DNA from: a virus
Reading direction: 5' to 3' (one strand)
IMG/VR virus record: IMGVR_UViG_3300045988_086557
Length of the DNA: 64,000 nucleotides
Positions within the stretch are counted from its first letter, which is position 1; each line of letters opens with the position of its first letter. This document shows, piece after piece, positions 5,280 to 61,392 of the stretch. The position numbers and the translations under genes are program-made. Below the pieces are notes generated by a model. That model was not told the DNA's origin and searched no databases. It worked only from the letters and a program-made list of their open reading frames with translations.

Positions 5280-6497
5280 ATGTCTGAAATAAATCAAGAT
5301 ACTACTTTCGAGCGTTTTTGTAGTTTTGACACTATGTATGATGCGTCTTATAAGGTATGCCGAAACGTTCGATGGAAAGATAGTACAATTAATTTTGAAG
5401 AGAATAGGATAGAAACAATTTTAAAAACAGAAGCTGATCTGCGAGCGTGTGAATACGAATAGCTTGTGTTTAGTTGTTTTTCGATAATCGAACGAGGCAA
5501 ACCAAGAGATATAAGAGCGTGTCATATCAACGACAGACTGGTACAAAATGCGTTATGTGAACAAGTTTTATTACCAGAATTAACTCCTAGATTTATCTAC
5601 GATAATTGTGCTACTTTAAGAGGAAAAGGAATAGACTTTGCTTTAAAAAGAGTAAAGAAACATCTTCAACAAGCTCATAGAGAATATGGATTAGGAAAAG
5701 ATTTTTATGGGTTAAGAATTGATATTCAAAAATATTTTGATTCTATTGACCATAAATCTTTAAAGAAAGCGGCTAAACGTTTGATAAAAGATAAAAGAAT
5801 TTATCAACTATGCTGTTATTTAATAGATACATTTTCTTTTAAGCTAACAAAAGATTCCTCTCCCATACCAGGAAAAGATTATTATATTAGTAAACGGCAC
5901 AAATACACGAGAATTAGTACCACTAATTTTAAGCCTGGCCGCAAATACTATGAATATGATAATAAAAGTCTTGGATTGGGAAGTCAAACATCACAATTAT
6001 TCGCATTGCTAGCATTGAACGAAATTGACCACTTCATCAAAGAAGAGTTACATATTAAGTATTATGGTCGTTATATGGATGATTTATATTTATTCCACAA
6101 TGACAGTCAATACTTAGCCGAATGTGAAAAGAGAATAGAAGTTCGCTTAAATAAGCAAGGATTAAAGATGAATAAGAAAAAGACTACTATTACTAGAATC
6201 TCTCCTATTCATGCGGACGGCAAACGTCACGCTCCATTAAAATACTTAAAGTGGAACTTTTATCTCACAGACACTAATCATATAATACAAATTCCTTTTA
6301 AAAAGAAAGTGGCTCATTAGCGCAGAAAGTTAAAGAAAATGCAAGCGCTATGGTTAGAGGGTAAAATTTCAACAGATGAAATTTAGAAATCCTATCAAGG
6401 TTGGAGGGCACATATTTCTAAAGGAACTTGTTTTTATATAATTCAAGATATGGACAATTATTTTCGTTCATTATTTAAAGGAGTTGAAATAAAGTAA
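5280..6497 (+). CDS. DGR reverse transcriptase (about 405 aa; 3 in-frame TAG)
   Basis: 'ERGKPRDIRACHINDRLVQNAL', 'RGKGIDFAL', DGR-specific 'LGSQTSQLFALLALNEIDHFIKEE' (replaces the QGxxxSP motif), 'YYGRYMDDLYLF' (YxDD), C-terminal 'SYQGWRAHISKG'. Track ORFs 5280..5462 and 5466..6320 share one frame. Confidence 0.9.
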
Positions 6498-49287: not shown

Positions 49288-49320
49288 GGAGAGAAGAAGT
49301 GAGTTCTTCTCTCTTTTTCG
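49288..49320 (+). terminator. intrinsic terminator
   Basis: 'GAGAAGAAgtgagTTCTTCTC' + TCTTTTT. Confidence 0.5.
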
Positions 49321-49516
49321 TTATTGAGATTGAAAAGTTGATTTAGATTTTGAAATGGCGTGGCAGAACGATTTCACCAAAAAATTTCCAGTTTTTCCCA
49401 AAATACACGCCCCTCTTTCACATGGTAAAGTATTGAAGTGTAGTTGGCCTCTTTCGCTCGCTAAAGTACGAAAGCAAGAAAGCACGCCCCTAAAGGAATA
49501 CGCGCGCGTAAAGGGT

Positions 49517-49533
49517 TTGTGCAAACTGCACAA
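49517..49533. promoter_or_regulatory. perfect palindromic operator 'TTGTGCAaacTGCACAA' in an ORF-free GC-richer 220-bp region
   Basis: same TTGTGCAA half-site recurs in inverted pairs before 5 other early promoters. Confidence 0.5.
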
Positions 49534-49587
49534 CAAGATGTTATTTATTTTGTGCAAAAGAGAGAGAAAGAAATTTCAAAAAAACTA

Positions 49588-49712
49588 TTGACAAGTGAGC
49601 GTTTTGGTGGTAAACTGGACTTGTCCAGTAGGACAGAGACAAAAGCACAGCACTTTGAAAATTAAAAAATTTCAAAAAAGGTATTGACAAACTGCTAAAG
49701 GTTTGATACAAT
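49588..49712 (+). promoter_or_regulatory. two tandem consensus promoters (TTGACA-N17-TAAACT; TTGACA-N17-TACAAT)
   Basis: hexamers with TGn extended -10; the segment between them resembles the one in the 57.4-57.6 kb promoter array. Confidence 0.55.
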
Positions 49713-51099: not shown

Positions 51100-51112
51100 A
51101 GGAATAATACTT

Positions 51113-51216
51113 GACTGGCAATCTACACAAAGATTGCCAGTCATTTTTATGCACTTTTCCATATTGACTTTTCGCCGGGCCGCCAGCGTGCGCCGCGGCC
51201 CGAATTTTTATTTATT
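51113..51216 (+). terminator. cassette boundary module A: intrinsic terminator + GC-rich 'CGGGCCGc..gCGGCCCG' hairpin/T-tract
   Basis: 'GACTGGCAATC..GATTGCCAGTC'+ATTTTTAT; then 'CGCCGGGCCGCCAGCGTGCGCCGCGGCCCG'+AATTTTTATTT. Confidence 0.65.
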
Positions 51217-51246
51217 CGGCAATTTCAACAATTATATGACCGAAAG

Positions 51247-51313
51247 TTTGTGCAATTCGACGAAAGTTTTTCTCCCGAAATTACTTGACATTCCTTTTCC
51301 CATGTGTTATTAT
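51247..51313 (+). promoter_or_regulatory. module A operator half-site TTGTGCAAT + promoter TTGACA-N17-TATTAT (TGT extended)
   Basis: read directly. Confidence 0.6.
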
Positions 51314-51366
51314 ATACTTGTCCAAAGGGACAGGTCACAAAAAGAATTTGAAAGGAAGTAAAAAAA

Positions 51367-51606
51367 ATGACTTTAGATATGGTTGCTTGGTTACTTTCTC
51401 CGCTTGCAGAAGATACTATGTTCTTTGACGGGGAGGGATTCGAAATTATCAATAAGAATACCCAAGCTCATTACCATGAATTACCTGATGGTAGAATAAC
51501 TCTGGGAGGAGACGTAATCGAGGTATCTAAGGAATGGGTTCTGGGACTTCAGGTAACCGGCATTGAGGCAAGAGATAACAATTTAATCATTTATGTAGAT
51601 GGTTAA
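51367..51606 (+). CDS. hypothetical protein (79 aa)
   Basis: GAAAGGAAG RBS; track ORF. Confidence 0.45.
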   Translation: MTLDMVAWLLSPLAEDTMFFDGEGFEIINKNTQAHYHELPDGRITLGGDVIEVSKEWVLGLQVTGIEARDNNLIIYVDG

Positions 51607-51668
51607 GAAAACTTGCGGGAGTGGAGGCCACAAACCTCTACTCCCCACGATAAAAAGGAGGAATAAAT

Positions 51669-51884
51669 ATGATTGCTGTTATTAAATTTGAAAGTGCAGA
51701 AAAGTCTGTGGAGTTTGGAAACACAATTTGTAATATGGCTGGCTGGTGTTTGGGTCATCCTCTCAATTCCAATGTTACCGGCTGTGTTTGTACACTTGAT
51801 TTTAATACCGGCGACAAGCAAGATAGAGCCTTATATAATTATCTGCTAAAAATTGGAGCTTTCGAGGAGGTGGAACTAAAGTGA
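51669..51884 (+). CDS. hypothetical Cys-containing protein (71 aa)
   Basis: AAAGGAGG RBS; track ORF. Confidence 0.45.
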   Translation: MIAVIKFESAEKSVEFGNTICNMAGWCLGHPLNSNVTGCVCTLDFNTGDKQDRALYNYLLKIGAFEEVELK

Positions 51885-52085
51885 GTATTGAGCGTTTACC
51901 GCATACATATCCTATCGGTTCCACTGTTTGGACAAATAAGGGATATGGCACAGTTCTACTTCACATTGGTAAATACCATCTGGTTTGGCTACAGAGATTA
52001 GGGCTGGCGTAATGCCGGCCCTATTGATTTTTTCAAAAAAATATATTATAATAATTATAGAAAAATAAAGAAAGGAGTTTTTCTA

Positions 52086-52202
52086 ATGACCTTAGAAGTG
52101 CTGAAAGCACTCGCGGTTATTTTGGAGTTCTGTTTGAACTAGGATTCTTGCAAGAATTGTCCTATGTCTCAGTTCTGCCAGAAAATGCCTTGCGAGTGGT
52201 AA
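52086..52202 (+). CDS. small Cys-rich peptide (about 38 aa) with one in-frame TAG
   Basis: 'MTLEVLKALAVILEFCLN.DSCKNCPMSQFCQKMPCEW'. Confidence 0.3.
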
Positions 52203-52294
52203 ATGTTCCTTCCGATTGTTCTAAATCGGCGATTCCCGTGATGGAGTCGTTTTTCGCACGAGCCTAGGTCACTAGAATTTATTTATCAAAATGC

Positions 52295-52525
52295 AAGAAA
52301 CTACTTTCTCTCGCAAATTGGATTCAAGTGGTAGAATTATGATTCCGATTCGTTTGCGTGAACAAATGGGACTTACTTCCGGTTAGGAATACTATTTCAC
52401 TACTATGGTAAAAGATGGCAGAAAATACATCTGCATTGACTGCGGATCGGTTGATTCCTCACTTGAAGAAGCTATGAAAATTATCCAAGCAAACGGATTA
52501 AAGATTGTTGAAAATGCCGATTGAC
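52295..52525 (+). CDS. AbrB-family (swapped-hairpin) transition-state-regulator-like protein, about 76 aa, with one in-frame TAG at codon 32
   Basis: 'RKLDSSGRIMIPIRLREQMGLTSG[TAG]EYYF' aligns with AbrB 'RKVDELGRVVIPIELRRTLGIAEKDALEIYV'; start codon/RBS weak. Confidence 0.5.
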
Positions 52526-52564
52526 TTCTCAAAAGAAAGGGAGTTGTTGGTATGCAGAAATTAA

Positions 52565-52643
52565 TGACCTCCTGAAATTCAGGAGGTTCTTTTTTTATTC
52601 GTTCGCCCGGCCGTGCACCACAGGCGCGGCCGGAATTTTTTAT
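52565..52643 (+). terminator. cassette boundary module B: intrinsic terminator + GC-rich hairpin/T-tract
   Basis: 'ACCTCCTGaaatTCAGGAGGT'+TCTTTTTTT; 'GCCCGGCCGTGCACCACAGGCGCGGCCGG'+AATTTTTT. Confidence 0.65.
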
Positions 52644-52650
52644 CAAGAGG

Positions 52651-52743
52651 CAATTTGCACAATTTTAGGCTCGAATTGTTGTGCAATCTGATGGAAGATT
52701 TTTTCCCAAAATCGCTTGACTTTCTATCTGTTATCTGTTATAC
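52651..52743 (+). promoter_or_regulatory. module B inverted-repeat operator TTGCACAA-N16-TTGTGCAA + promoter TTGACT-N17-TATACT
   Basis: read directly. Confidence 0.6.
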
Positions 52744-52797
52744 TTGTATCATCAAGAGGGGAGAACAAAAGCCCTCGAAACAAAAGGAGAATGAGTT

Positions 52798-53031
52798 ATG
52801 TATCTGGTAATGGCTGACAGTAGAGAAAAGATTATCGGCGTTTCTGATACTGAAACTGGCGCACGCCATGCGGGATGGGACTGGCTCAAGGCCCAGTATT
52901 CCGAAAGCGAGTGGAGCCAAATTCTGGAAGATATGGACTATGAGAATGAAGGGGACTTGCGGCATGACCTTCTCATGGGCGCATATTGGGAAGATTTCGA
53001 TATGGAGATTATCGAGGTTAAGAGGGTATAA
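52798..53031 (+). CDS. hypothetical acidic protein (77 aa)
   Basis: AAAGGAGAATG RBS; track ORF. Confidence 0.45.
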   Translation: MYLVMADSREKIIGVSDTETGARHAGWDWLKAQYSESEWSQILEDMDYENEGDLRHDLLMGAYWEDFDMEIIEVKRV

Positions 53032-53060
53032 ACCCTCTTAACCAGAAAAGGAGTATATAT

Positions 53061-53213
53061 ATGACTACCTTCACAATGATTGTTTTGATTGCGTTTGTGG
53101 CCTGCCTTGCATGGCAGTTAATGGCGGCTGCTCAAAAGAGCTGTATTCGGCTTGAAATCATGTTTGCCGCAGAAATTCTAATGTTCGCATATTTGGCAAA
53201 AAATTTGATGTAA
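53061..53213 (+). CDS. small membrane protein (50 aa)
   Basis: AAAAGGAG RBS; single TM 'MIVLIAFVACLAWQLMAAA'. Confidence 0.4.
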   Translation: MTTFTMIVLIAFVACLAWQLMAAAQKSCIRLEIMFAAEILMFAYLAKNLM

Positions 53214-53217
53214 AGGG

Positions 53218-53246
53218 TTGACAAACCGCTTAAACAGTGGTATAAT
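53218..53246 (+). promoter_or_regulatory. consensus promoter TTGACA-N17-TATAAT (TGg extended)
   Basis: read directly. Confidence 0.6.
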
Positions 53247-53297
53247 CAATAATGTAAAGAGAAGGAAAACTCATTAAACCAGAAAGGAAATATTGCT

Positions 53298-53528
53298 ATG
53301 TATAGAATGACTGAGCAGGATAGACAGGGGATTATTCTTCTGCATAAGACCATGGAGGAGTTCTGCCCAGGAGAAGCAGCACAGGCAATGCTCCAGTCTT
53401 TGGGAAAATTCCTGCGGATCGGCATGTGTACTCCCGATGACGCGGCCGATATTATCAAGGGTATTTTCGATGAGGAAGCCGATAAGACAGTTGATGAAAT
53501 GACTATGATGGATTTACTTTCCTTGTAA
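53298..53528 (+). CDS. hypothetical protein (76 aa)
   Basis: GAAAGGAAA RBS; track ORF. Confidence 0.45.
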   Translation: MYRMTEQDRQGIILLHKTMEEFCPGEAAQAMLQSLGKFLRIGMCTPDDAADIIKGIFDEEADKTVDEMTMMDLLSL

Positions 53529-53536
53529 AAAAGGGG

Positions 53537-53565
53537 TTGACAAACTGCCCCTTCTGTGGTACAAT
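53537..53565 (+). promoter_or_regulatory. consensus promoter TTGACA-N17-TACAAT
   Basis: read directly. Confidence 0.55.
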
Positions 53566-53623
53566 AAGACTATGGAAGGGGCAGCCCCAAAAATAAATTA
53601 AAATAAGAAAGGGAGTTTTAGAA

Positions 53624-54022
53624 ATGCGTGTTACTAAGAGGATTGAAGCCTATATCAATGATGAGGTCAACAAGATTGCGAACGCCAAGCGAGAGGAAAT
53701 CAGAGCCAAGTATGCGGACGCTATGAAAGAGTTTGAGGATTTCATCGAGGAAGGCCGAAAAGAGATTGAGGCGCTGAATACAAGGATTATTGAGCGCGCC
53801 ACAGCGAAGGGATATAAGCTCCGCCGCTATTATGACCAGGAGTGTGCCAAGTCAAATATGTGCAGTCTTTACAACCCCATCAACCAAACGATGGATGAAG
53901 AGCTGTCCACTGTGACAAAGTGGGTAGAGGAAAATGCAAGTCTGATCTGCGTCAAGCTGGAAATGGGCGGCGACATGAAAACTCTGTCTACTCTGCTGGA
54001 CGAACTGCGGAAATCGCTTTAA
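53624..54022 (+). CDS. hypothetical coiled-coil protein (132 aa)
   Basis: AAGGGAG RBS; followed by 8-bp GC hairpin 54031..54067. Confidence 0.45.
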   Translation: MRVTKRIEAYINDEVNKIANAKREEIRAKYADAMKEFEDFIEEGRKEIEALNTRIIERATAKGYKLRRYYDQECAKSNMCSLYNPINQTMDEELSTVTKWVEENASLICVKLEMGGDMKTLSTLLDELRKSL

Positions 54023-54076
54023 GGAAAGGAGGCGCGGGAGTATAGGACTTGTATTCTATGCTCCCGCGATAAAAAA

Positions 54077-54535
54077 ATGAGAGCTGTTGGTATTGTTCGA
54101 CATATTGATGACCTAGGGCGTATTGTTATTCCTAGAGAAATTCGTAGGAGTATGCGAATTAGAGAAGGCGACCCTATGGAAATTTTTCTTGATGGCGACT
54201 GTATAGCCTTCAAGAAATATTCTCCACTATCTTTTTTCGTTGACCATGCCCACGAAATGCGAAATGCCCTTTCTGTTAATCACATTTCCGCGGCGATCTT
54301 CGATTCAGATAAACTTTTAAGCGGGCCTAGTTCTTTCAAAATTTCTATACCACCAGATGAATGGAGTAATATCAGCCAACCTGCGACAGCGTGGAAATCT
54401 ATGTTTATTACTCCCATTTTTTCTGATGGGGGACAAATTGGATTCATTTGTTACAAAAATCTGCACAATGATGAATCTATTCACGAAATGGTTAAATTAG
54501 TCGCAAGGTATTTTTCAAATATGGCTGAAAGATAA
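54077..54535 (+). CDS. SpoVT-like regulator: AbrB-type N-terminal DNA-binding domain + truncated GAF-like C-terminal domain (152 aa)
   Basis: 'GIVRHIDDLGRIVIPREIRRSMRIREGDPMEIFLDGDCIAFKKYSP' is near-identical in pattern to B. subtilis SpoVT 'GIVRRIDDLGRVVIPKEIRRTLRIREGDPLEIFVDRDGEVILKKYSP'. Confidence 0.75.
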   Translation: MRAVGIVRHIDDLGRIVIPREIRRSMRIREGDPMEIFLDGDCIAFKKYSPLSFFVDHAHEMRNALSVNHISAAIFDSDKLLSGPSSFKISIPPDEWSNISQPATAWKSMFITPIFSDGGQIGFICYKNLHNDESIHEMVKLVARYFSNMAER

Positions 54536-54619
54536 AAGAAGGGCTTCGGCCCTTCTTTTTTATACACTAAAAATTCGACGGCGCGCTGACGCACGCGGCG
54601 CGCCGAGTTTTCTTATTTG
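54535..54619 (+). terminator. cassette boundary module C: intrinsic terminator + GC-rich hairpin/T-tract
   Basis: 'GAAGGGCttcgGCCCTTC'+TTTTTTAT; 'CGACGGCGCGCTGACGCACGCGGCGCGCCG'+AGTTTTCTTATTT. Confidence 0.65.
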
Positions 54620-54648
54620 TAAGTTCTACACAATTTTTGTCTTGAAAT

Positions 54649-54695
54649 CTTGTGCAATTCGCCATCTTGCAATTATCCTTAAATTATGGTATTAT
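54649..54695 (+). promoter_or_regulatory. module C operator TTGTGCAAT(tcgccatc)TTGCAAT + promoter TTGCAA-N17-TATTAT (TGg extended)
   Basis: read directly. Confidence 0.55.
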
Positions 54696-54722
54696 TAGTA
54701 CAGAAAAAAGGAGGGGTACTAA

Positions 54723-54971
54723 ATGAAACCTTCAAAGTTTATTCAGCCCAATGAATACTTAACCGTGGCTGAAATTTATCGTAGACAATTCGGGCATACT
54801 ACTACCCCGGTTAATTATGAGGTTTATATACGAACTGTGCTTTTACAAGACCCTCTGATCTATATAGATTGTATGTCAATGCCTTATAAGGTATATCGGC
54901 GTAAAACTTTTTTTGAAAAACTTGTTGACAAGGTGTGCAATAAATGGTATAATAAAACAAAAGGAGATTGA
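54723..54971 (+). CDS. hypothetical protein (82 aa); its 3' end contains the promoter of the next gene
   Basis: AAGGAGGGG RBS; internal TTGACA-N17-TATAAT at 54925..54953. Confidence 0.4.
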   Translation: MKPSKFIQPNEYLTVAEIYRRQFGHTTTPVNYEVYIRTVLLQDPLIYIDCMSMPYKVYRRKTFFEKLVDKVCNKWYNKTKGD

Positions 54972-54977
54972 TATACA

Positions 54978-55439
54978 ATGACTAAAAAAATGCTCTGCTT
55001 TGACATGGATGGAACTATCGCGGACTTGTATGCAGTCCCTAATTGGCTCGAAAAACTCCGCAATGGAGACCCTACCCCATTCCGAGACGCGGCCCCTATG
55101 TGGGACATGGAAGCCCTCCGAAATGCGCTTCTAAAGGCAATCAATAACGGATGGGAAATTAGAGTAATTACATGGCTACCACCTGAAAGCACTCCCGAAT
55201 ATAAGAAAGCAGTCACAGCCGCAAAAAAGGAATGGCTTGCAAGGTATAAATTTCCGGCCCATAAATGTCATTGTGTGGCATACGGAACGACCAAAGCCAA
55301 ATGTGTATTCCGTAGTTTCTATGAACCGCCGTTTATCCTTTTTGATGATAATGATAAAATTAGGTACGGTTGGCATTTAGGAGATACAATAAATCCAGGA
55401 GAGACAGACATAATCGAATATATCAACAATTTGGACTGA
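54978..55439 (+). CDS. HAD-superfamily 5'(3')-deoxyribonucleotidase-like protein (153 aa)
   Basis: motif I 'LCFDMDGTIADL', downstream 'FILFDDNDK'; overall NT5C-like layout. Confidence 0.55.
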   Translation: MTKKMLCFDMDGTIADLYAVPNWLEKLRNGDPTPFRDAAPMWDMEALRNALLKAINNGWEIRVITWLPPESTPEYKKAVTAAKKEWLARYKFPAHKCHCVAYGTTKAKCVFRSFYEPPFILFDDNDKIRYGWHLGDTINPGETDIIEYINNLD

Positions 55440-55441
55440 AT

Positions 55442-55466
55442 GGGGCGGGGTGAAAATCCCCGCCCC
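55442..55466. repeat. hairpin 'GGGGCGGGGtgaaaatCCCCGCCCC', copy 1 of 2 (second at 58085..58107)
   Basis: identical 23-nt core at both sites, each immediately after a gene stop. Confidence 0.5.
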
Positions 55467-55488
55467 ACAAAGAAAGGGAGTTTTGTCA

Positions 55489-55683
55489 ATGCAAATTAAG
55501 AAAGTTAATAGGCTCATTTTTGATTCAACGGAAAAACAAACATTGAGAAATGCTTCAATTCTCATAAGCCAGATTAGCCGGAGCATGGAAGAGAATGAAA
55601 TTGATGATGATTTTCCTGTCTCTCTTGATGATCTGGTATATGGGATAGATGAACTAATCAATAGGGAATATATTGGATATTAA
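55489..55683 (+). CDS. hypothetical acidic protein (64 aa)
   Basis: AAAGGGAG RBS. Confidence 0.4.
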   Translation: MQIKKVNRLIFDSTEKQTLRNASILISQISRSMEENEIDDDFPVSLDDLVYGIDELINREYIGY

Positions 55684-55688
55684 AAATA

Positions 55689-55773
55689 CCCCTCTCATTA
55701 TTGAGAGGGGTATTTTTTTATTGTCGTTTGGGCGGCCCGCGCTTGGGCGGTGCGGGCCGAATTTTTTTCTTTG
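55689..55773 (+). terminator. cassette boundary module D: intrinsic terminator + GC-rich hairpin/T-tract
   Basis: 'CCCCTCTCattattGAGAGGGG'+TATTTTTTTA; 'GGCGGCCCGCGCTTGGGCGGTGCGGGCCG'+AATTTTTTTCTTT. Confidence 0.65.
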
Positions 55774-55778
55774 TAGAT

Positions 55779-55849
55779 GTTGCACAATTTTGGCGGCGAA
55801 AAGTTGTGCAATTTGCCATCTTGCAATTCTCCCAAAAGTATGGTATTAT
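55779..55849 (+). promoter_or_regulatory. module D inverted-repeat operator TTGCACAA-N19-TTGTGCAA + promoter TTGCAA-N17-TATTAT
   Basis: read directly. Confidence 0.6.
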
Positions 55850-55980
55850 TATCATGTCAGGAGGGAGAGGCCAAGAAATCAAGAGGTCGCGAACTCTTAG
55901 AAAGTAAAGGAAGCAAAGTATACGGCTAAATTTCAATTAGCTACTGAAAGGATTAAGCCAAAAAAACTTTCCTTTTCCTC
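55850..55980 (+). ncRNA. candidate small non-coding transcript (about 130 nt) between the module D promoter and a second promoter
   Basis: consensus promoter upstream, no ORF longer than 17 codons, no RBS; second promoter TTGACA-N17-TATAAT at 55981..56009 serves the exonuclease gene. Confidence 0.25.
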
Positions 55981-56043
55981 TTGACACCAAGCCTTAAATG
56001 TGCTATAATAATACCATCAAGAGAAGAAAGGACTTGATAGATT

Positions 56044-56868
56044 ATGATTGATAAGCGCAGACATTATGTGCTGGTGGTTGACACTGAAACCGCCAACACA
56101 CTAACCGAAACCGTTCCCGCTGAAATCGGAGAGGATGGGGAGATTATTACTCCTGAGCGTGTCCGCATGGATATGTCAAATGTACTGGTATATGACTGCG
56201 GTTGGGCTGTAGTAGATACCAAGGGCAATATTTACGAAACTGCAAGTTTTGTAAATCGGGACATTTTCAATGACGAGCGAGACTTAATGCGGACGGCCTA
56301 TTATAATTGGAAAATCCCCCGCTATGTTGAGGAATTGCGGGCCGGCACTCGCAAGATGGCTACTACTTATGAAATCCGTCAGGCTATGCTTGATACTATC
56401 GAGCGATACGGAATTAAGGAAGTGGCTGCTTATAATGCCCGGTTTGACGATAACGCTCTGCGGGTCACTCAACGATGGGTCACTTGCTCTAAGTTTCGCT
56501 ACTGGTTCCCGTTTGACAGTGTGGAAATTTGGGATATTATGAAGATGACACAAGATGTTATCTGCAATATGCCCACTTATAAGAAATTCTGTCAGGAAAA
56601 TGGATATATCCAAGCCAATGGCGTTCCCCGTAAGACTGCGGAAATCGTGTGGCGGTTTATCTCTGGAAATACCGATTTTGAGGAAAGTCATACGGGGCTT
56701 GAAGATGTTCTCATTGAGGCGGAAATCATGTGGTACTGTATGCGCCAACATAAGCCCATGAGAAAGGCCCTGTATGAGAATAGGAAGGAATTTCCTCCTA
56801 TGACAGACTTTCAGCGTCAGCTTTCCGCAAGTATGCGGAATGTACCTACTATTCGAGTCGGGGCTTAA
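56044..56868 (+). CDS. DnaQ-like DEDDh 3'-5' exonuclease (274 aa)
   Basis: Exo I 'VVDTETA', Exo II 'AAYNARFDDNAL', Exo III 'SHTGLEDVLIEAEI'. Confidence 0.65.
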   Translation: MIDKRRHYVLVVDTETANTLTETVPAEIGEDGEIITPERVRMDMSNVLVYDCGWAVVDTKGNIYETASFVNRDIFNDERDLMRTAYYNWKIPRYVEELRAGTRKMATTYEIRQAMLDTIERYGIKEVAAYNARFDDNALRVTQRWVTCSKFRYWFPFDSVEIWDIMKMTQDVICNMPTYKKFCQENGYIQANGVPRKTAEIVWRFISGNTDFEESHTGLEDVLIEAEIMWYCMRQHKPMRKALYENRKEFPPMTDFQRQLSASMRNVPTIRVGA

Positions 56869-56911
56869 CGCCCCGCTCCATAAAAAATATCTGAAAAGTA
56901 TGTAAAAAACC

Positions 56912-56940
56912 TTGACAGCTTCACCGAATTGTGGTATAAT
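56912..56940 (+). promoter_or_regulatory. consensus promoter TTGACA-N17-TATAAT (TGg extended)
   Basis: read directly. Confidence 0.6.
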
Positions 56941-56987
56941 TTAATCATCAAGAGGGAATAACCCTCATAAAAGAAAGGGAGTTTTGT

Positions 56988-57138
56988 TATGATGAATTTC
57001 TATTTTAAGACTGCGGCAGGCCATGTGTTTGCGGGTGTCGGCAAGGATGTTGACCGTGCCCGTTCTGATGCTAAGCGCAAGGCCGGTTCTCTTTGGTCGC
57101 CTTCGGCCAAGTGCTTCAAAATCGGGAACGCTATTTAA
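56988..57138 (+). CDS. small basic protein (50 aa)
   Basis: AAAGGGAG RBS. Confidence 0.4.
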
Positions 57139-57153
57139 GACGTTTCCGACTAA

Positions 57154-57232
57154 AAGAGGGGTTTTACCCCTCTTTTTTTTATACAAAATTGAGCGGGTCG
57201 CGCAGGAGCGGCGCGACCCGAGTTTTTCTTTG
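57154..57232 (+). terminator. cassette boundary module E: intrinsic terminator + GC-rich hairpin/T-tract
   Basis: 'AGAGGGGttttaCCCCTCT'+TTTTTTTTA; 'CGGGTCGCGCAGGAGCGGCGCGACCCG'+AGTTTTTCTTT. Confidence 0.65.
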
Positions 57233-57236
57233 TAAA

Positions 57237-57624
57237 TGTTGCACAAAAATTTCAACCCCGTTTTGTGTAAAATTCTGCACAAAAACTTTCTCCCAAAATT
57301 CCGATTTTTGTGCAATTTGACGCTTGCAATCTGCTTTTGCTTGTGGTAAAATACATTCAGAAAGTGAGAGAGACGAACGGCAGACAGCGACAGCGAATTT
57401 CTCAAAAATCTTTCAAGAATCTCTTGACAAGCCTTTGAAGATGTGCTATAATAAGTACAGAAAACAAGGCAATGCACCTTGAAAATTAAATAAAAAGGGC
57501 TTGACAAACTTTCCAAAGTGTGTTACACTATAAGGGAGGTTGAGAGGGCAAACAAGTAAAGAGCAAAAGTTCTTGAAAAAAGTTTGAAAAACCTCTTGAC
57601 AAGTACCAAATAGTGTGGTACAAT
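57237..57624 (+). promoter_or_regulatory. module E: operator pairs (TTGCACAA...TTGTGTAA, TCTGCACAA...TTGTGCAAT) followed by four tandem consensus promoters (-35 at 57324, 57425, 57501, 57596)
   Basis: four TTG(A/C)CA-N17-TAnAnT hexamer pairs, each with TGn extended -10, within 300 bp upstream of the gene at 57673. Confidence 0.6.
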
Positions 57625-57672
57625 ATAATCAAAGGACAAGGACAGTCCTAAAAACCAGAAAGGATGTATATT

Positions 57673-58074
57673 ATGGACGAGAAGAAAATCCGCATTACTA
57701 AGGCCCAGCGTTTTGAGGACATTAAGGCCCTCTTGACTGACGGCGAGGTAAAGTATGGCACTACCATCGAGGTGGCTATTACTGTCATTGACCATGAGCT
57801 GGAGCTTCTGCGTAAGAAGAATAGCTCTAGCGGTGACAAGAAGCTGACTCCCACCCAGCAGGAGAACGAGAATTTTAAGGAGCAGATTATGGAGTATCTG
57901 GCTGGTCTGGATGCCGATACCGATGGCGTAACCTGCACGGAAATTTTCAAGGCTATTCCTGATCTGACGGCCTATTCTAACCAGAAGGTCGCCGCCCTTG
58001 TGCGGCAGTTGAAACTCGATGGTCGAGTGGTCTGCACGGAGAAGAAGGGCAAGTCCCTCTTTAAGATGGCGTAA
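57673..58074 (+). CDS. putative winged-helix DNA-binding regulator (133 aa)
   Basis: C-terminal 'GVTCTEIFKAIPDLTAYSNQKVAALVRQLKLDGRVVCTEKKGKSLF' wHTH-like; AAAGGA RBS; heavily promoted. Confidence 0.4.
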   Translation: MDEKKIRITKAQRFEDIKALLTDGEVKYGTTIEVAITVIDHELELLRKKNSSSGDKKLTPTQQENENFKEQIMEYLAGLDADTDGVTCTEIFKAIPDLTAYSNQKVAALVRQLKLDGRVVCTEKKGKSLFKMA

Positions 58075-58212
58075 CCCCGTATAGGGCGGGGTGAAAATCC
58101 CCGCCCTAACTTATAATATGGGGGTGATATTATATCCAGTCGCATTAGTGACGCTGAACGGATTGCAAGGTATAAAGCCCTACAATTAACGCCGGAACAG
58201 GAGGCGGAGTTA

Positions 58213-58530
58213 TTGGCCTATGATAAAGCGGTAGAGGCTGATAAAAAGACTGAATACGATTTACCGCCAGATAAGGCAAAAATTGCCCAAAAGTTTGCCC
58301 ATGCGGGGACGAGAAAGGCTCCAACGGCATATAAGTTTACGCCCCGGCAACGCAAGCCAAACGCCACGAAAGGCGGTATAATCGCGGAATTGGCAGAGTT
58401 TTTGGAAAAAAACAGTCAATTCTCTATCGCTGACTTGTCTATTACTAACAAAGAAAGGCAGATTGCGTTTTCTATTGGTGGGGATAGTTTCGAGTTGACG
58501 CTTGTGCAAAAGCGTAAGCCGAAGAAATAA
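58213..58530 (+). CDS. hypothetical basic protein (about 105 aa; TTG start in track)
   Basis: track ORF; followed by GC hairpin 'GGGGTAGGgtcggCCTACCCC'. Confidence 0.35.
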   Translation: MAYDKAVEADKKTEYDLPPDKAKIAQKFAHAGTRKAPTAYKFTPRQRKPNATKGGIIAELAEFLEKNSQFSIADLSITNKERQIAFSIGGDSFELTLVQKRKPKK

Positions 58531-58586
58531 CGGGGTAGGGTCGGCCTACCCCGGCCCTACCAGAAAAGAGGCAAGTTATAGTTAGT

Positions 58587-58937
58587 TTGCAGACAAGGAG
58601 AAAAGAGTTCCTATATGTCGGACATTATATCGACAAAAAGGGGCGCTATATTCTCAAGATTGGTACGACAAATGACCTTGAACGCAGAGCCGCAGAGCAT
58701 ACGAGAAATTATAAGCGGGCGCCAGATTACACCATGCCGGAAGATGGTTCCTTTATCTATGATTGGCATATCAAACTTTCCAAGTATAATACCCTACGAT
58801 ACGAGGATGTAAACCGGACTTTGTGGCAGAATATGGGAATTGGTCGTTTTATCAGAAATGACCGTTTCTTGTGCGACACTCCCCCGGCCATGGTTACGGT
58901 GGTTATTCGCAAGGCATATCCAATAATTCTCAACTAA
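58587..58937 (+). CDS. GIY-YIG / T5orf172-like nuclease-domain protein (116 aa)
   Basis: 'FLYVGHYIDKKGRYILKIGTTNDLERRAAEH' matches the GIY...YIG..T.N...RR..EH pattern; preferred over overlapping 65-aa ORF 58615..58812. Confidence 0.5.
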   Translation: MQTRRKEFLYVGHYIDKKGRYILKIGTTNDLERRAAEHTRNYKRAPDYTMPEDGSFIYDWHIKLSKYNTLRYEDVNRTLWQNMGIGRFIRNDRFLCDTPPAMVTVVIRKAYPIILN

Positions 58938-58942
58938 AGAAA

Positions 58943-59023
58943 AATCTCCCCTTATGGGGAGATTTTTTTTATGCAAAATTTTGAGCGGACCGCTTGCGTG
59001 CGCCGCGGTCCGAATTTTTCTTC
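58943..59023 (+). terminator. cassette boundary module F: intrinsic terminator + GC-rich hairpin/T-tract
   Basis: 'ATCTCCCCttatGGGGAGAT'+TTTTTTTTAT; 'GCGGACCGCTTGCGTGCGCCGCGGTCCG'+AATTTTTCTTC. Confidence 0.65.
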
Positions 59024-59055
59024 TATTGTCATTTTCAACAATTTTGAATTGAAAA

Positions 59056-59102
59056 TTTGTGCAACTTGACAGCTTGACTTTCTCCCGAAAATGTGGTATC
59101 AT
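59056..59102 (+). promoter_or_regulatory. module F operator half-site TTTGTGCAAC + promoter TTGACT-N17-TATCAT (TGg extended)
   Basis: read directly. Confidence 0.55.
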
Positions 59103-59129
59103 TTAACCATGGAAGGGAGGTAAAAGAAA

Positions 59130-59270
59130 TGATGAATAAACTTAAAAACTCTATCATTCGTTTCTTAATTAAAAGAACTTGCCTTGACATTTCCACTATT
59201 TATTCGGTATTAGGACAAAGTACAGAAAAAGAAATGAAATTTTATATTAAAGATTATTACAGGAGATAAA
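59130..59270 (+). CDS. small protein (46 aa)
   Basis: GGAAGGGAGG RBS. Confidence 0.4.
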
Positions 59271-59274
59271 AGAA

Positions 59275-59727
59275 ATGGAAAGCTTAAAACAATTTCGTGT
59301 TAATTTTCAAGTTACCTTTTGGTGTGAAGGTCGCAAGGGTATCTTCTCTAAGAAGCCTTATAAATTTACGGTATCATTTCGTGATGATATTATGCTTTCT
59401 ACCTTTTTAATCAATGCTCGAACCGAAAAAGAAGCGGTTAAAACTGGAAAAAACTATGTTGAAAATATAGTTCAATGTTGGGTTGAACAGTCAGAAGAAA
59501 ATCAAGCCACCGGCGAATATATGATTTTAACTGGAAATATGGCTGATACAAAAAGATTTGAGTGGTCGCCTAAAATCTACGCCATTACTGGGTATGAAAT
59601 TAAATTTATTTCCTGCGAAATGGTTTGCGACTGGGCAAAAGAAAGGGTTGAGAGAGCGGCAAGAGAACTGACTATGGAGCAATTTAAGCAAGTTTTTAGT
59701 GAAATTCCGGCTGAGATTTTTCATTAA
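59275..59727 (+). CDS. hypothetical protein (150 aa)
   Basis: AGGAGA RBS; track ORF. Confidence 0.5.
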   Translation: MESLKQFRVNFQVTFWCEGRKGIFSKKPYKFTVSFRDDIMLSTFLINARTEKEAVKTGKNYVENIVQCWVEQSEENQATGEYMILTGNMADTKRFEWSPKIYAITGYEIKFISCEMVCDWAKERVERAARELTMEQFKQVFSEIPAEIFH

Positions 59728-59744
59728 AGAAAGGAGATTTTTAG

Positions 59745-59996
59745 ATGGTTGATATTGATTTCGACAAACTGAATGATGAGGAGTTGCAATGGTTGAGTGC
59801 TACCGCCTATAAAGAAGTGGCACTTAGAAAACAAAAAGCGCAAGAGAAAGATTGGAATAGTCTAATCGAAAAGATAGACGAGTATTGTAAAAAGTATGGA
59901 GAAATAACTATCGTTGGATATGGAGATGAATTTGTTTTTGAATCTCCGATACGGTGTAACTGTATAGGAGAAATCAATTTAGAAAACGAGGATTAA
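59745..59996 (+). CDS. hypothetical acidic protein (83 aa)
   Basis: AAAGGAGA RBS; track ORF. Confidence 0.5.
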   Translation: MVDIDFDKLNDEELQWLSATAYKEVALRKQKAQEKDWNSLIEKIDEYCKKYGEITIVGYGDEFVFESPIRCNCIGEINLENED

Positions 59997-60000
59997 GAAA

Positions 60001-60080
60001 AGAGAGGCTTTGGCCTCTCTTTTTATTTTATATTTCCTAAACTCGACGGGCCGGTCGCGGGCGACTCGGCCCGAGTTTTC
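60001..60080 (+). terminator. cassette boundary module G: intrinsic terminator + GC-rich hairpin (no promoter follows)
   Basis: 'AGAGAGGCtttgGCCTCTCT'+TTTTATTTT; 'CGACGGGCCGGTCGCGGGCGACTCGGCCCG'+AGTTTTCC. Confidence 0.6.
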
Positions 60081-61392
60081 CCGATCGGACCATAGCGCAA
60101 AATTTTCATAGCAACTTGGCCATAACGCAACTTCATAGCGATTTTCCCAAAATTCATAACGCCCTCTTCCAAACACCGATCGGCCCTACTTTACTTCTTT
60201 CTTTATCTAGCTCCGATCGGTCCAGCAATATTGGCTCTCTCGTCCAATTTTTTATAATAAAAATCTTAAAATTGTCAAGTATTCACAGTACCAAAACTTT
60301 CTAAAATACAACTAACAATAGCAAAGATATAGCTATGAAAAACAAATACGACCAGAGATTTCTTTCGCGGAACCGATCGGTTTAACACAATTTTATGATA
60401 AAAATAGCTCAAAAATAGAGATTTTAGCTAGATAAACCGATCGGCCCGCGATCTTTTACCTCTTGTTATCGCAAAATATAACAAAAAACCTCTAAAATCT
60501 TGCAAAAATGCGCGTTTTTCTAACAAATTTACTTAAAAATAAGCAAAAAATGCCTCGTTTTTCTCAAAATTTCTTGATATTCACAGAATTAAAACTATTA
60601 AAGATACAGCAAACAATAGCAAAGATGTTGCTAACTATTTGAAAAGAAAAAATCTTTTCCGCGGGATTCCGTTAAAGCGATCTTTTTATCTAGACCCGAT
60701 CGGTTCGACAATATATAAAAAATATAATATAATATATACATAAGATAAAGAAAAGGAGGATTTTAGTTTAAGAAGCATCATAACGCTTTTTCTAACTAAA
60801 AGAACTTATTATGAATAGTTATGAGATTATGATTCGTGATGCAATGCAGAATGGTTCCACTCAGGAGGAGATTGCAAAGGCATTTACCGATGCTATGAAT
60901 AGAATCTCCGAGGCTAATGCCGCAGACCGTGAGCGAGATAATCTTCTGGATGAGATTGAATCTACTTTTTATGGCAATGTTGATGATTTGTCTCTCACTG
61001 AGGATGACGTTGGCCGCGTGGCTGCGCTGGTTTATAGCAAGAGCAATCCTAAGTGGACAGCAAATGATATTAAGCAGTTTATGCAAGCTATGACTGTAAC
61101 TGCTAAGACTTCCGCTCGAGTAGTCAATGCAAAGAGTCTTGATGAAGTAATTGACATTGCTGTTGACTCTATTTCTGATGCTCTCGCAGGTAGTATGAAT
61201 AAGGCTAAGACTGATGAGGACAATATCATGGAGTTTTTGAGACATTTGAAGTAAGATAAACAAGAGGAAAAAGATTAAAGGAGAGAAGTATTGTAGCTTC
61301 TCTCCTTTTTTATATATATTATAATCGCGGAAGGCTAGGTTTACGATCGTTGTGACGAGTGTTGTGATGGTTCGTACCTAGACCCGATCGGC
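60051..61392. repeat. ORF-free repeat region: 7 copies of the palindrome CCGATCGG (some extended to AACCGATCGGTT), two about 75-bp direct repeats (60281..60360 and 60583..60660), 'TCATAGC/CATAACGC' short repeats
   Basis: CCGATCGG at about 60063, 60178, 60226, 60376, 60433, 60699 and 61380; it spans the gene 60811..61254. Confidence 0.6.
60811..61254 (+). CDS. hypothetical acidic protein (147 aa)
   Basis: track ORF; followed by terminator 'GGAGAGAAGtattgtaGCTTCTCTCC'+TTTTTTAT at 61276..61312. Confidence 0.5.
   Translation: MNSYEIMIRDAMQNGSTQEEIAKAFTDAMNRISEANAADRERDNLLDEIESTFYGNVDDLSLTEDDVGRVAALVYSKSNPKWTANDIKQFMQAMTVTAKTSARVVNAKSLDEVIDIAVDSISDALAGSMNKAKTDEDNIMEFLRHLK

What the first reader, a model, noticed from the sequence alone, without database searches (positions are those of the whole stretch)
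51113..60080. Seven-fold repeated terminator / GC-hairpin / operator / promoter boundary modules delimiting moron-like gene cassettes (PeSL-like architecture)
At 51.1, 52.6, 54.5, 55.7, 57.2, 58.9 and 60.0 kb the same diverged about 150-250-bp module recurs, in this order.
- (i) A canonical intrinsic terminator.
- (ii) A second, unusually GC-rich (over 80% GC) hairpin of the family 'CGGGCCGN..NCGGCCCG' followed by AATTTTT.
- (iii) 'TTGTGCAA'/'TTGCACAA' operator half-sites, often as inverted pairs.
- (iv) A shared 'TTCTCCCGAAAAT' stretch.
- (v) A near-consensus TTGACA-N17-TATAAT promoter with TGn.

Each module brackets 1-3 small accessory genes. These include the macro/PTH2 pair, SpoVT, nucleotidase, DEDDh exonuclease and GIY-YIG. 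The result is an array of insulated, independently transcribed cassettes with homologous boundaries. That is the arrangement expected to promote cassette shuffling by homologous recombination between related phages, analogous to the promoter-early-stem-loop cassettes of T4-type phages. It would explain a fast-evolving anti-defence/host-takeover island.
Basis: seen in the sequence. Interest (0 to 1): 0.75.

Follow-up and report, generated by a model that had tools for sequence, protein, structure and literature searches.

The report
Repeated boundary modules between phage cassettes
A gut phage that reads the TAG stop codon as an amino acid separates its small early-gene cassettes with seven copies of one composite control element. 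Related phages have swapped, lost and moved cassettes mainly at a fixed 27-base GC hairpin inside that element, so this is a new version of a shuffling system already known from T4-type phages.

Summary
Seven homologous modules lie at 51.1, 52.6, 54.5, 55.7, 57.2, 58.9 and 60.0 kb.

Each module has the same order of parts:
- a canonical terminator (T1);
- a GC hairpin (H) that is always exactly 27 nt, followed by A-R-TTT;
- a paired site TTGCACAA-N16-TTGTGCAA at a fixed distance from H;
- a sigma-A-type promoter matching 9-11 of 12 consensus positions.

A covariance model of H hits the 64-kb window seven times and nowhere else. It finds about 160 same-strand copies in 26 related viral contigs. 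Stem positions covary perfectly and three loop bases are conserved.

Related genomes differ in cassette content. Seven of nine inspected mosaic junctions lie within 10 nt of H, and left/right flank discordance peaks across the module core.

Best reading: these are insulated, co-regulated early transcription units whose shared boundaries act as recombination linkers. They work like T4 PeSL elements but are not homologous to them.

- Module 7 has no operator and no promoter.
- The perfect 12/12 promoters are internal to cassettes, not in modules.
- Cassettes hold 2-6 genes, not 1-3.
- The macro/PTH2 pair lies outside the hairpin array.
- The anti-defence role is untested.

This is a new variant of a known kind.

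The parts
49288..49712 (+). Related hairpin-less module ('module 0'). Terminator 49288-49314; TTGTGCAA at 49517 and 49550 plus CTGCACAA; TTTTCCCAAAAT-like stretch; tandem promoters 49588-49616 and 49684-49712.
   Evidence: No covariance-model hit here.
51112..51313 (+). Module 1. T1 51112-51143; H 51176-51202; degenerate half-site 51223-51231; TTGTGCAA 51248-51255; TTCTCCCGAAATT 51270-51282; promoter 51285-51313 (11/12).
52566..52744 (+). Module 2. T1 52566-52588; H 52607-52633; TTGCACAA 52655-52662; TTGTGCAA 52679-52686; promoter 52716-52744 (10/12).
   Evidence: The junction with L004-L006 lies just after H.
54534..54695 (+). Module 3. T1 54534-54559; H 54579-54605; TTCTACACAA 54624-54633; TTGTGCAA 54650-54657; promoter TTGCAA-N17-TATTAT 54667-54695 (9/12, with TG).
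   Evidence: (family D2).
55682..55849 (+). Module 4. T1 55682-55717; H 55733-55759; TTGCACAA 55780-55787; TTGTGCAA 55804-55811; promoter 55821-55849 (9/12). About 125 nt without an ORF follow, up to the next promoter at 55981.
57152..57352 (+). Module 5. T1 57152-57176; H 57194-57220; TTGCACAA 57239-57246; extra half-sites 57262-57282; TTCTCCCAAAATT 57288-57300; TTGTGCAA 57308-57315; promoter 57324-57352 (9/12).
57424..57624 (+). Three further tandem consensus promoters (57424-57452 at 12/12, 57501-57529, 57596-57624) between module 5 and gene 57673.
   Evidence: The same arrangement stands in front of the homologous gene in phAss-1.
58940..59102 (+). Module 6. T1 58940-58967; H 58986-59012; TTTCAACAA 59033-59041; TTGTGCAA 59057-59064; promoter 59074-59102 (10/12) with TTCTCCCGAAAAT in its spacer.
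   Evidence: It is one partner in the cassette-6 indel.
59997..60160 (+). Module 7, the terminal module. T1 59997-60024; H 60047-60073 (CGGGCCGGTCGCGGGCGACTCGGCCCG), whose sequence is nearly invariant across the clade. No exact operator and no promoter. CATAGCGCAA/CATAACGCAA repeats and TTTTCCCAAAATT follow.
53218..53246 (+). Internal 12/12 promoter without hairpin or operator. The others are at 53537-53565, 54925-54953, 55981-56009 and 56912-56940.
57673..58074 (+). Gene for a 133-aa protein with a C-terminal winged-helix domain. It is the most conserved gene of the array and a candidate binder of the TTGCACAA-N16-TTGTGCAA sites.
   Evidence: Association with operator-rich DNA also holds in phAss-1.
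54077..54535 (+). Gene for an AbrB/SpoVT/MazE-type DNA-binding protein, the second candidate regulator. A smaller paralogue at 52291-52524 carries one in-frame TAG.
60081..60703 (.). Non-coding region abutting module 7. It holds six CCGATCGG palindromes, the first 7 nt after H, and a 72-nt direct repeat (60264 and 60562).
   Evidence: Position conserved in relatives.

Best explanation
The region 49.3-60.1 kb is the variable early-gene array of a large siphovirus-like phage that reads TAG as a sense codon. It is related to phAss-1, and its host is probably a gut member of the Clostridia.

Each boundary module does two things.

(a) Transcription control (inferred).
- T1 ends the upstream cassette.
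- The 27-nt GC hairpin H, with its A-R-TTT tail, is a second barrier that stops read-through.
- The downstream, deliberately sub-consensus sigma-A promoter is therefore governed only by the paired site TTGCACAA-N16-TTGTGCAA, which sits at a fixed distance from H.
- The six promoter-bearing modules thus form one regulon. It is presumably switched by a phage DNA-binding protein. The candidates are the winged-helix protein 57673-58074 and the AbrB-like protein 54077-54535.
- The 12/12 internal promoters are unregulated.

(b) Recombination (pattern shown, mechanism inferred).
- The modules are the only sequences shared by otherwise unrelated cassettes, so recombination between phages or between modules joins cassettes there.
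- Surviving junctions pile up at the two feet of H. A crossover inside H would pair a 5' arm with a non-matching 3' arm and break the stem, which selection keeps intact.

Shown: repetition, homology, stem covariation, restriction to the array, cassette variation, junction positions.
Inferred: termination, operator function, the identity of the regulator, the recombination mechanism.
For: Structure.
- Seven modules share one order of parts.
- T1 and H fold as two separate stable hairpins.
- Among 152 copies and 51 distinct 27-mers of H, pairs 2/26, 4/24 and 5/23 covary perfectly.
- On a 47-sequence alignment of those 27-mers, 92.6% of cells are paired, 7 of 10 pairs show changes on both sides, and 0 of 500 shuffles reach the observed score.

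Specificity.
- The model hits the window 7 times and nowhere else. In relatives every hit above 20 bits is on the array strand; the ten minus-strand hits score 15-17 bits and overlap plus-strand copies.
- In full contigs of 80-165 kb the matches stay inside the array.

Operator.
- TTGCACAA lies 15-24 nt after H and TTGTGCAA 40-49 nt after H, with a spacing of 23-24 nt.
- From the counts (65 and 75 of 129 module flanks carry the two 8-mers; 55 occurrences in 421,771 nt outside), I estimate roughly 30-fold greater density inside modules.
- The motif and a 24-nt pair also stand upstream of the winged-helix gene homologue in phAss-1, 9 occurrences against 0.8 expected.

Regulators.
- The 57673 protein model has mean pLDDT 87 and a winged-helix C-terminal domain.
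- AbrB/MazE-type Pfam hits for 54077 and 52291.

Shuffling.
-.
- Ends of high-identity alignments are 4.8-fold and 4.0-fold enriched in the 10 nt before and after H, against 0.1-fold at -30 to -10.
- Flank discordance is 34% across H, 14-17% across T1 or the promoter, and 3-5% within genes.
Against: - No transcript data exist for any of these phages.
- H has only 3-5 T, offset from the stem by two purines. That is weaker than a textbook terminator.
- Its invariant length and its conserved loop bases (G13, C16, G17) are not needed for termination.
- In the distant sub-clade a consensus promoter ends 2-4 nt before H, so the transcript would start inside the 5' arm. That fits poorly with a purely RNA-level terminator role for those copies.
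- The strict four-gamete-type test finds little reticulation, with cycle rank 0-1.
- Pair counts are not independent events.
- Alignment ends are drawn towards the edges of conserved elements.
- Most alignment ends (about 93%) are not at H.
Confidence: 0.6

Rival explanations
1. H is a dedicated, structure-specific recombination or nicking site, recognised as a DNA hairpin or cruciform by a phage enzyme. Cassettes then move by a site-directed mechanism, in the manner of integron attC sites or REP/RAYT elements, rather than by ordinary homologous recombination.
For: - Length is invariant at 27 nt, the stem covaries and loop bases are conserved asymmetrically.
- Junctions lie exactly at the hairpin feet with only 3-7 nt of shared sequence. 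Examples are the M6 flank fused to the M7 hairpin in L001, and the same junction position in L002/L003 on a different flank lineage.
- A T5orf172 (GIY-YIG-clan) gene sits in the conserved cassette 5.
- Promoter-then-H arrangements suggest a DNA-level role.
Against: - No integrase, HUH or transposase gene was identified near the array.
- The stems are perfect, with no extrahelical bases and no conserved cleavage motif.
- Some junctions also occur at the T1 end and in the operator spacer.
- The foot pattern is equally explained by selection against chimeric stems.
- Counts of G.U against A.C mismatches do not separate RNA-level from DNA-level pairing.
Confidence: 0.15
2. H is an RNA element bound by a phage factor, serving as a target for antitermination, processing or stabilisation in the manner of boxB/nut or RAT sites. 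Read-through between cassettes would then be switched on or off during infection.
For: - Fixed geometry and conserved loop positions G13, C16 and G17, while the stem changes by compensatory substitutions.
- Inner stem pairs show more G.U (33) than A.C (19).
- In some relatives H stands immediately downstream of a strong promoter.
- The U tract is weak.
Against: - In most modules H lies after a strong terminator and before the promoter, so it would rarely be transcribed.
- Where a promoter precedes H, the start site would fall inside the 5' arm.
- No RNA-binding protein was identified.
- Rfam gives no family match.
Confidence: 0.15
3. The modules are copies of a small non-autonomous mobile element (MITE-like) that inserted repeatedly between genes.
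For: A repeated element of about 170-250 bp, uniform in orientation, with a hairpin core. Copy number varies from 5 to 9 per array among relatives.
Against: - No terminal inverted repeats or target-site duplications were seen at module edges.
- The copies are diverged (55-74% identical within the genome), while orthologous copies at the same positions are conserved across the clade.
- The element carries working-looking promoter parts in register with the downstream genes.
- It is absent from bacterial chromosomes.
Confidence: 0.04
4. The modules are chance similarity of ordinary terminators and promoters.
For: Terminators and sigma-A promoters share generic features.
Against: - Covariance-model hits at E of 1e-9 to 1e-13, confined to seven sites.
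- Extended alignable similarity outside the hexamers and stems.
- Motif enrichments with 0 of 100 shuffles reaching the observed counts.
Confidence: 0.01

Closest known systems
PeSL (promoter-early stem-loop) elements of T4-like myoviruses (Arbiol et al. 2010, PMC2839356; Comeau et al. 2014, PMC4122927)
   Same: - A composite terminator stem-loop plus sigma-70-type early promoter, repeated between small ORFs of a hyperplastic region.
- Copies are similar to each other.
- Insertions, deletions, replacements and ORF displacements between close relatives abut the elements.
   Different: - A different phage lineage: phAss-1-like, siphovirus-type, TAG-recoded, with Gram-positive-type promoters. There is no sequence homology.
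- Two tandem hairpins instead of one. The second has a fixed 27-nt length with conserved loop bases.
- A paired operator-like site lies between hairpin and promoter.
- Crossovers focus on the hairpin.
- Mini-circle formation has not been shown here.
SPBRE operators bound by the master repressor MrpR in Bacillus phage SPbeta (PMC10516654)
   Same: A short conserved motif repeated in about ten early promoter regions of a large Firmicutes phage, defining one regulon. The capsid protein of the window phage is distantly related to SPbeta-like phages.
   Different: - A different motif (two 8-mers 24 nt apart, against one 15-bp site).
- Binding is unproven here.
- The candidate regulators are winged-helix or AbrB-type, not a recombinase-fold protein.
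- SPBRE is not described as part of a terminator-hairpin module or as a recombination linker.
Host-takeover module of Bacillus phage SPO1, and the promoter-dense early array of Enterococcus phage H1/EF1-type phages
   Same: A dense run of small early genes in many short transcription units with strong sigma-A promoters and terminators. The SPO1 comparison is from my own knowledge. Enterococcus phage H1 has about 20 promoters scoring 11-12 of 12 in 10 kb.
   Different: The Enterococcus phage H1 array lacks the 27-nt hairpins and the TTGTGCAA sites. No homologous repeated boundary module is described for SPO1.
Integron attC sites, and REP elements with RAYT transposases
   Same: Structure is conserved while sequence varies, in hairpins that delimit gene cassettes or lie after genes. 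Junctions fall at the hairpin.
   Different: - No integrase or RAYT gene was found.
- The stems are perfect, with no attC core sites.
- The element is not multi-copy in bacterial chromosomes.
Morons of lambdoid phages (promoter-gene-terminator units)
   Same: Units such as 56887-57147 (promoter plus a 49-aa gene, placed just before a terminator) behave as self-contained transcription units. They sit at different places in related genomes.
   Different: Here they are embedded in an ordered array with homologous, regulated boundaries rather than scattered among late genes.

Membership tests
PeSL elements (T4-like phages) | A stem-loop placed just upstream of a sigma-70-like early promoter, followed by a Shine-Dalgarno sequence and start codon. 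| tested here: met
   Modules 1-6 have hairpins, then a promoter, then RBS and ATG. There are two hairpins, with 60-110 nt between H and the -35.
PeSL elements (T4-like phages) | Multiple mutually similar copies concentrated in a hyperplastic region of small variable ORFs. | tested here: met
   Seven copies in 9 kb and none in the other 55 kb. Gene content is variable.
PeSL elements (T4-like phages) | Indels, replacements and ORF displacements between close relatives lie next to or inside the elements. | tested here: met
PeSL elements (T4-like phages) | Carried by T4-like myoviruses, with sequence relatedness to described PeSL consensus motifs. | tested here: not met
   The capsid protein's nearest deposited relatives are phAss-1 and Enterococcus/SPbeta-like phages. 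There is a 2851-aa ORF that I read as the tape measure protein. The stems differ from the published GN-loop-CN, A3-4G3 and AGNA forms (PMC4122927).
PeSL elements (T4-like phages) | Excision of the DNA between two elements as mini-circles. | not testable with these tools
   This needs PCR on infected cells.
Intrinsic (Rho-independent) terminator | A stable GC-rich stem-loop followed directly by a U tract. | tested here: met
   This row concerns T1. Stems are 9-16 bp with 6-9 T directly after.
Intrinsic (Rho-independent) terminator | The same criterion applied to the 27-nt hairpin H. | tested here: inconclusive
   The stem is 7-10 bp and almost all G-C. The tail is A-R followed by only 3-5 T. 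The scan flags H in 4 of the 7 modules.
Intrinsic (Rho-independent) terminator | RNA 3' ends map to the U tract. | not testable with these tools
   No transcript data.
Repeated phage operator regulon (SPBRE/MrpR type) | The same short motif lies in many early promoter regions of one phage. | tested here: met
   TTGTGCAA/TTGCACAA occurs in modules 1-6 and module 0. Position and spacing are conserved in 129 distinct flanks.
Repeated phage operator regulon (SPBRE/MrpR type) | Demonstrated binding by a phage-encoded regulator. | not testable with these tools
   There are only candidates: the winged-helix protein 57673 and the AbrB-like protein 54077.
Integron attC site | An imperfect palindrome with conserved core sites and extrahelical bases. 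| tested here: not met
   The outer 7 bp are perfectly paired in almost all copies, with no bulges and no GTTRRRY-type core.
Integron attC site | An adjacent integron integrase gene. | not tested
   No systematic search for recombinases. Only part of the genome is in the window.
REP elements | Many copies scattered in intergenic regions of the bacterial chromosome. | tested here: not met
   In 185,579 species genomes, arrays were found only on five contigs binned with Clostridia-class MAGs, two of them about 148 kb (phage-genome-sized) and the others 9-20-kb fragments. A sixth array-bearing contig came from an unclassified MAG. The other matches were not model-searched; they are single matches, mostly in GC-rich lineages, which I read as chance.

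The most novel reading that the evidence does not exclude
The 27-nt hairpin is not mainly a terminator. It is a dedicated, structure-recognised exchange site. A phage enzyme, or replication stalling and template switching at the hairpin, would make the early array work as an integron-like cassette-exchange platform in a lytic, TAG-recoded phage. The sequence-invariant terminal copy M7 would be tied to the adjacent CCGATCGG-rich region, which may be an origin.
Probability: 0.15. Interest if true: 0.8.

Novelty: new variant of a known kind. Interest (0 to 1): 0.55.

Why it matters
- It extends the PeSL principle, in which regulatory boundary sequences double as recombination linkers for accessory early genes, from T4-like phages of Gram-negative hosts to an unrelated and largely uncultured clade of large gut phages that recode TAG.
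- The 27-nt hairpin is a sharp, searchable marker. One model finds the variable early arrays in metagenomic contigs, so cassette repertoires and their turnover can be catalogued.
- It yields concrete, testable predictions: a hairpin-centred crossover zone, and a two-class promoter design in which operator-controlled module promoters alternate with constitutive internal ones.

Tried and rejected
- Megablast of 49-61 kb against deposited phages: no match.
- tRNA scan: none.
- Rfam at gathering threshold: none. At E up to 1 there are only sub-threshold terminator-like look-alikes.
- Pfam and PHROGs gave nothing for most cassette proteins. The 'exonuclease' has no Pfam hit, only a PHROG of unknown function and a GenBank label on a 38%-identical Enterococcus phage gene.
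- Host REP idea: rejected by the bacterial genome scan.
- The covariance model on Enterococcus phage H1 and on the distant locus L027 gave no convincing copies. phAss-1 gave one weak copy.
- A four-gamete-type test on segment types gave cycle rank 0-1, too weak to count events.
- G.U against A.C mismatch counts, meant to separate RNA-level from DNA-level pairing, were 3 against 3 by my count among the seven single-mismatch family members in the outer stem, and 33 against 19 in the inner pairs. This is inconclusive.
- Extension of the H stem into its flanks occurs only in M3 and M7.
- MITE reading: no terminal repeats or target duplications were seen.

Full report
CONTEXT

The window is part of a tailed-phage genome that reads TAG as a sense codon. 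Under the standard code only 20 ORFs of 150 aa or more exist in 64 kb. Allowing TAG as sense raises the longest ORF from 464 to 2913 aa. Relatives have CAA at an in-frame TAG of the window.

Genes at 8-46 kb lie on the minus strand. They include a 2851-aa ORF that I read as the tape measure protein, plus capsid and terminase-like proteins. The capsid protein's nearest deposited relatives are phAss-1 (52% identity; a TAG-recoded gut siphovirus thought to infect Clostridia, PMC10607447) and 134-142-kb Enterococcus phages.

The finding lies in a plus-strand block (46-60 kb, GC about 40%) that is almost free of in-frame TAG.

Seven modules have the same order of parts.
- T1 is a canonical terminator with an A tract, a 9-16-bp stem and 6-9 T.
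- After 15-32 nt comes a second hairpin, H.
- H is always exactly 27 nt, of the form C-N-G-N-N-C-G, 13 nt, C-G-N-N-C-N-G, followed by A-R-TTT. Hairpins of this 27-nt form occur nowhere else in the 64 kb; two similar GC-rich intercistronic hairpins without a T run sit at 55441 and 58082.
- A covariance model built from H plus 12-nt flanks hits the window seven times, all on the plus strand, and nothing else at E up to 1.
- TTGTGCAA and its complement occur 13 times against 2.0 expected, 12 of them in 49.5-59.1 kb.
- The modules align beyond generic features: 72-74% identity over 117-124 nt for the closest pairs.

- Module 7 has no operator and no promoter.
- Module promoters score 9-11 of 12. 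The five perfect TTGACA-N17-TGnTATAAT promoters are internal to cassettes and lack H and the operator.
- Cassettes hold 2-6 genes.
- The PARG/macro-PTH2 pair lies upstream of the first hairpin module.
- A related module without H sits at 49.29-49.71 kb.

THE ELEMENT IS A CLADE-WIDE FAMILY

Twenty-seven viral contigs encode a relative of the 274-aa protein at 56044. Twenty-six of them carry arrays of 5-9 of the same hairpins. Every hit above 20 bits is on the array strand; the ten minus-strand hits score 15-17 bits and overlap plus-strand copies.

Among 152 strict copies there are 51 distinct 27-mers.
- Positions 2/26, 4/24 and 5/23 covary perfectly.
- On a 47-sequence alignment of those 27-mers, 92.6% of cells are paired and 7 of 10 pairs show changes on both sides.
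- No shuffle out of 500 reaches the observed covariation, and slid controls drop to 31-44% paired. The copies were selected for pairing in the outer stem, so this test carries most weight for the inner pairs and for the pair types.
- Loop positions G13, C16 and G17 are 86-90% conserved, although the stems have turned over.

A degenerate pattern scan of 2.9 million viral contigs returned 50 stretches. Nearly all come from this clade or from about 14 further 84-196-kb contigs that also hold arrays. Within the full contigs the matches stay inside the array region.

In bacterial genomes, arrays appear only on five contigs binned with Clostridia-class MAGs (Eubacterium, Oscillospiraceae, Acutalibacteraceae, Clostridia) plus one from an unclassified MAG. 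Two of them are about 148 kb, the size of a phage genome; the others are 9-20-kb fragments. The remaining matches were not model-searched; they are single matches, mostly in GC-rich lineages, which I read as chance. H is therefore a phage element, not a host repeat.

phAss-1 has one promoter-hairpin-operator module and a TTGTGCAA enrichment, both upstream of the homologue of gene 57673. Enterococcus phage H1 has a dense array of consensus promoters but neither H nor the motif.

THE OPERATOR-LIKE SITE

In 129 distinct flanks, TTGCACAA starts 15-24 nt after H and TTGTGCAA 40-49 nt after H, and the two are 23-24 nt apart. From the counts in that call I estimate the 8-mers are roughly 30-fold denser in modules than outside.

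The distance from the second half-site to the -35 varies (1, 8-9, 18 or 29 nt). The constrained unit is therefore H plus the paired site.

The array has two candidate regulators:
- an AbrB/MazE-type protein at 54077-54535;
- the 133-aa protein at 57673-58074. It is present in nearly all the relatives and is preceded by four tandem promoters. Its model (mean pLDDT 87) has a C-terminal winged helix resembling Fur/PerR, MarR, ArsR and Z-alpha domains, though fold-search E-values are only about 1e-2.

Which protein binds, if either, is inference.

CASSETTE SHUFFLING IS REAL AND CENTRES ON THE HAIRPIN

- Against relative L001 (98% protein identity over the 274-aa marker gene; 96% DNA identity over aligned stretches), gene 56989 is replaced between 56876 and 57154. 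Cassette 6 is absent.
- The L001 junction carries the M6 upstream flank up to GAG-CGG and then the M7 hairpin and everything after it.
- L002 and L003 show the same junction position on a different flank lineage, while L026 keeps the cassette.
- L004-L006 match the window at 97-98% up to H of module 2 plus AATTTT. They then carry a different operator-promoter and go straight to the nucleotidase gene.
- The unit 56887-57147 (promoter plus a 49-aa gene) lies before module 4 in L002 and L026.
- Gene families 54978, 59745, 59129, 56989 and 51367 occupy different cassettes in different relatives.

Of nine junctions inspected base by base:
- seven lie within 10 nt of H (at the 5' foot or in the first 7 nt, or at the 3' foot just after the T run);
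- one lies at the end of T1;
- one lies in the operator spacer.

Ends of alignments with 88% identity or more are enriched 4.8-fold and 4.0-fold in the 10 nt before and after H, against 0.1-fold at -30 to -10.

I also compared 40-nt windows on either side of a sliding 39-nt gap. The share of pairs with one side nearly identical and the other unrelated is:

| Gap position | Discordant pairs |
|---|---|
| Inside upstream genes | 3-5% |
| Across T1 | 14% |
| Across H | 34% |
| Across the promoter region | 17-26% |
| In the downstream gene | 8% |

Caveats:
- These are pair counts, not independent events.
- Conserved elements attract alignment ends.
- A strict four-gamete-type test is weak.
- About 93% of all alignment ends lie elsewhere.

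MECHANISM

The simplest account has two parts.
- T1 plus H form a double barrier that insulates each operator-controlled, sub-consensus promoter from upstream transcription.
- The modules are the only homology between unrelated cassettes, so they are where recombination joins them.

Junctions at the feet of H follow from selection. A crossover inside H would combine arms that differ at the covarying positions and would break the stem.

Four features do not fit a plain terminator:
- the invariant length;
- the conserved asymmetric loop;
- a short T run offset by two purines;
- in the distant sub-clade, consensus promoters ending 2-4 nt before H, always so for the sequence-invariant M7 copy. There the transcript would start inside the 5' arm.

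These features keep two rivals alive: a structure-specific DNA exchange site, and a protein-bound RNA element. Mismatch-type counts do not decide between RNA-level and DNA-level pairing.

COMPARISON WITH KNOWN SYSTEMS

- By function this is a PeSL-type system (PMC2839356, PMC4122927). It meets the architectural and comparative criteria. It is not a member of that family, because the phage lineage and the sequences differ and mini-circles are untested.
- The operator part resembles the SPBRE/MrpR regulon of SPbeta (PMC10516654).
- The phAss-1 paper does not mention promoters, terminators, hairpins or repeats.
- I found no description of the 27-nt hairpin family, within the limits of the searchable library.

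VERDICT

The anti-defence label is untested. This is a new variant of a known kind, with a well-defined hairpin whose exact role is still open.

Noticed in passing
window 1-64000, especially 8000-46000 on the minus strand; also 52140 and 52384: The phage recodes TAG as a sense codon, probably Gln. ORF coverage and maximum length jump when TAG is read through. Two small genes inside the early array each carry one in-frame TAG, which aligns to CAA, CAG or CGA in relatives. No suppressor tRNA lies in the window.
   Followed up: partly
window 60081-60703, plus 61384: CCGATCGG palindromes occur 8 times against 0.16 expected. Six lie in the 0.7-kb non-coding region right after module 7, and the first is always 7 nt after the hairpin in relatives. 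There is also a 72-nt direct repeat (60264 and 60562). This may be a replication origin or another cis-acting region.
   Followed up: partly
window 2639-4264 and 5280-6497 (+): A reverse transcriptase (RVT_1, E = 1e-16) lies next to a protein with Big_3 and DUF6273 domains. This looks like a diversity-generating retroelement. Template and variable repeats were not searched.
   Followed up: partly
window 55441-55467 and 58082-58108; also 51620-51650, 54030-54065 and 58531-58557: A second repeated hairpin, (T)GGGGCGGGGTGAAAATCCCCGCCCC(A), has no T run. It sits between a stop codon and the next ribosome-binding site. Similar intercistronic hairpins occur at other gene junctions. One of them is a recombination breakpoint (55467/55470).
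   Followed up: no
L009 7888-7946 and 13440-13506; L021 7570-7632: In the distant sub-clade a 12/12 consensus promoter ends 2-4 nt before the 27-nt hairpin. This is always so for the invariant M7 copy. The transcript would start inside the hairpin's 5' arm.
   Followed up: partly
L009 7519-7560; L029 4256-4279, 6521-6551, 8253-8278 and 9555-9584; weakly at window 53528-53566: Internal promoters whose -35 hexamer TTGACA sits in the loop of a terminator-like hairpin. This is a compact overlapping terminator-promoter design, seen also in Enterococcus phage H1.
   Followed up: no
window 55850-55980 and 57353-57660: The promoters of modules 4 and 5 are followed by 125-300 nt without an ORF and by further tandem promoters. 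Leaders share a YATCAAGAGRGGA-type start and small 5' hairpins. These may be short non-coding transcripts or 5' stabilisers.
   Followed up: no
window 58587-58937: The T5orf172 (GIY-YIG clan) reading frame has no ATG start with a good ribosome-binding site. The frame opens at a TTG, and a 65-aa ATG ORF overlaps it in another frame. The true start is unclear.
   Followed up: no
L029 9820-10360 (Enterococcus phage H1): A non-coding region in the middle of the early array holds TTGTGAA-N4-TTCACAA palindromes, AAAATAACA iterons and one GC hairpin. It resembles the region after module 7 and hints at a shared origin-like feature.
   Followed up: no
L028 6640-6740 (phAss-1): A tRNA-like sequence ending in CCA lies directly upstream of the single hairpin module of phAss-1.
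   Followed up: no
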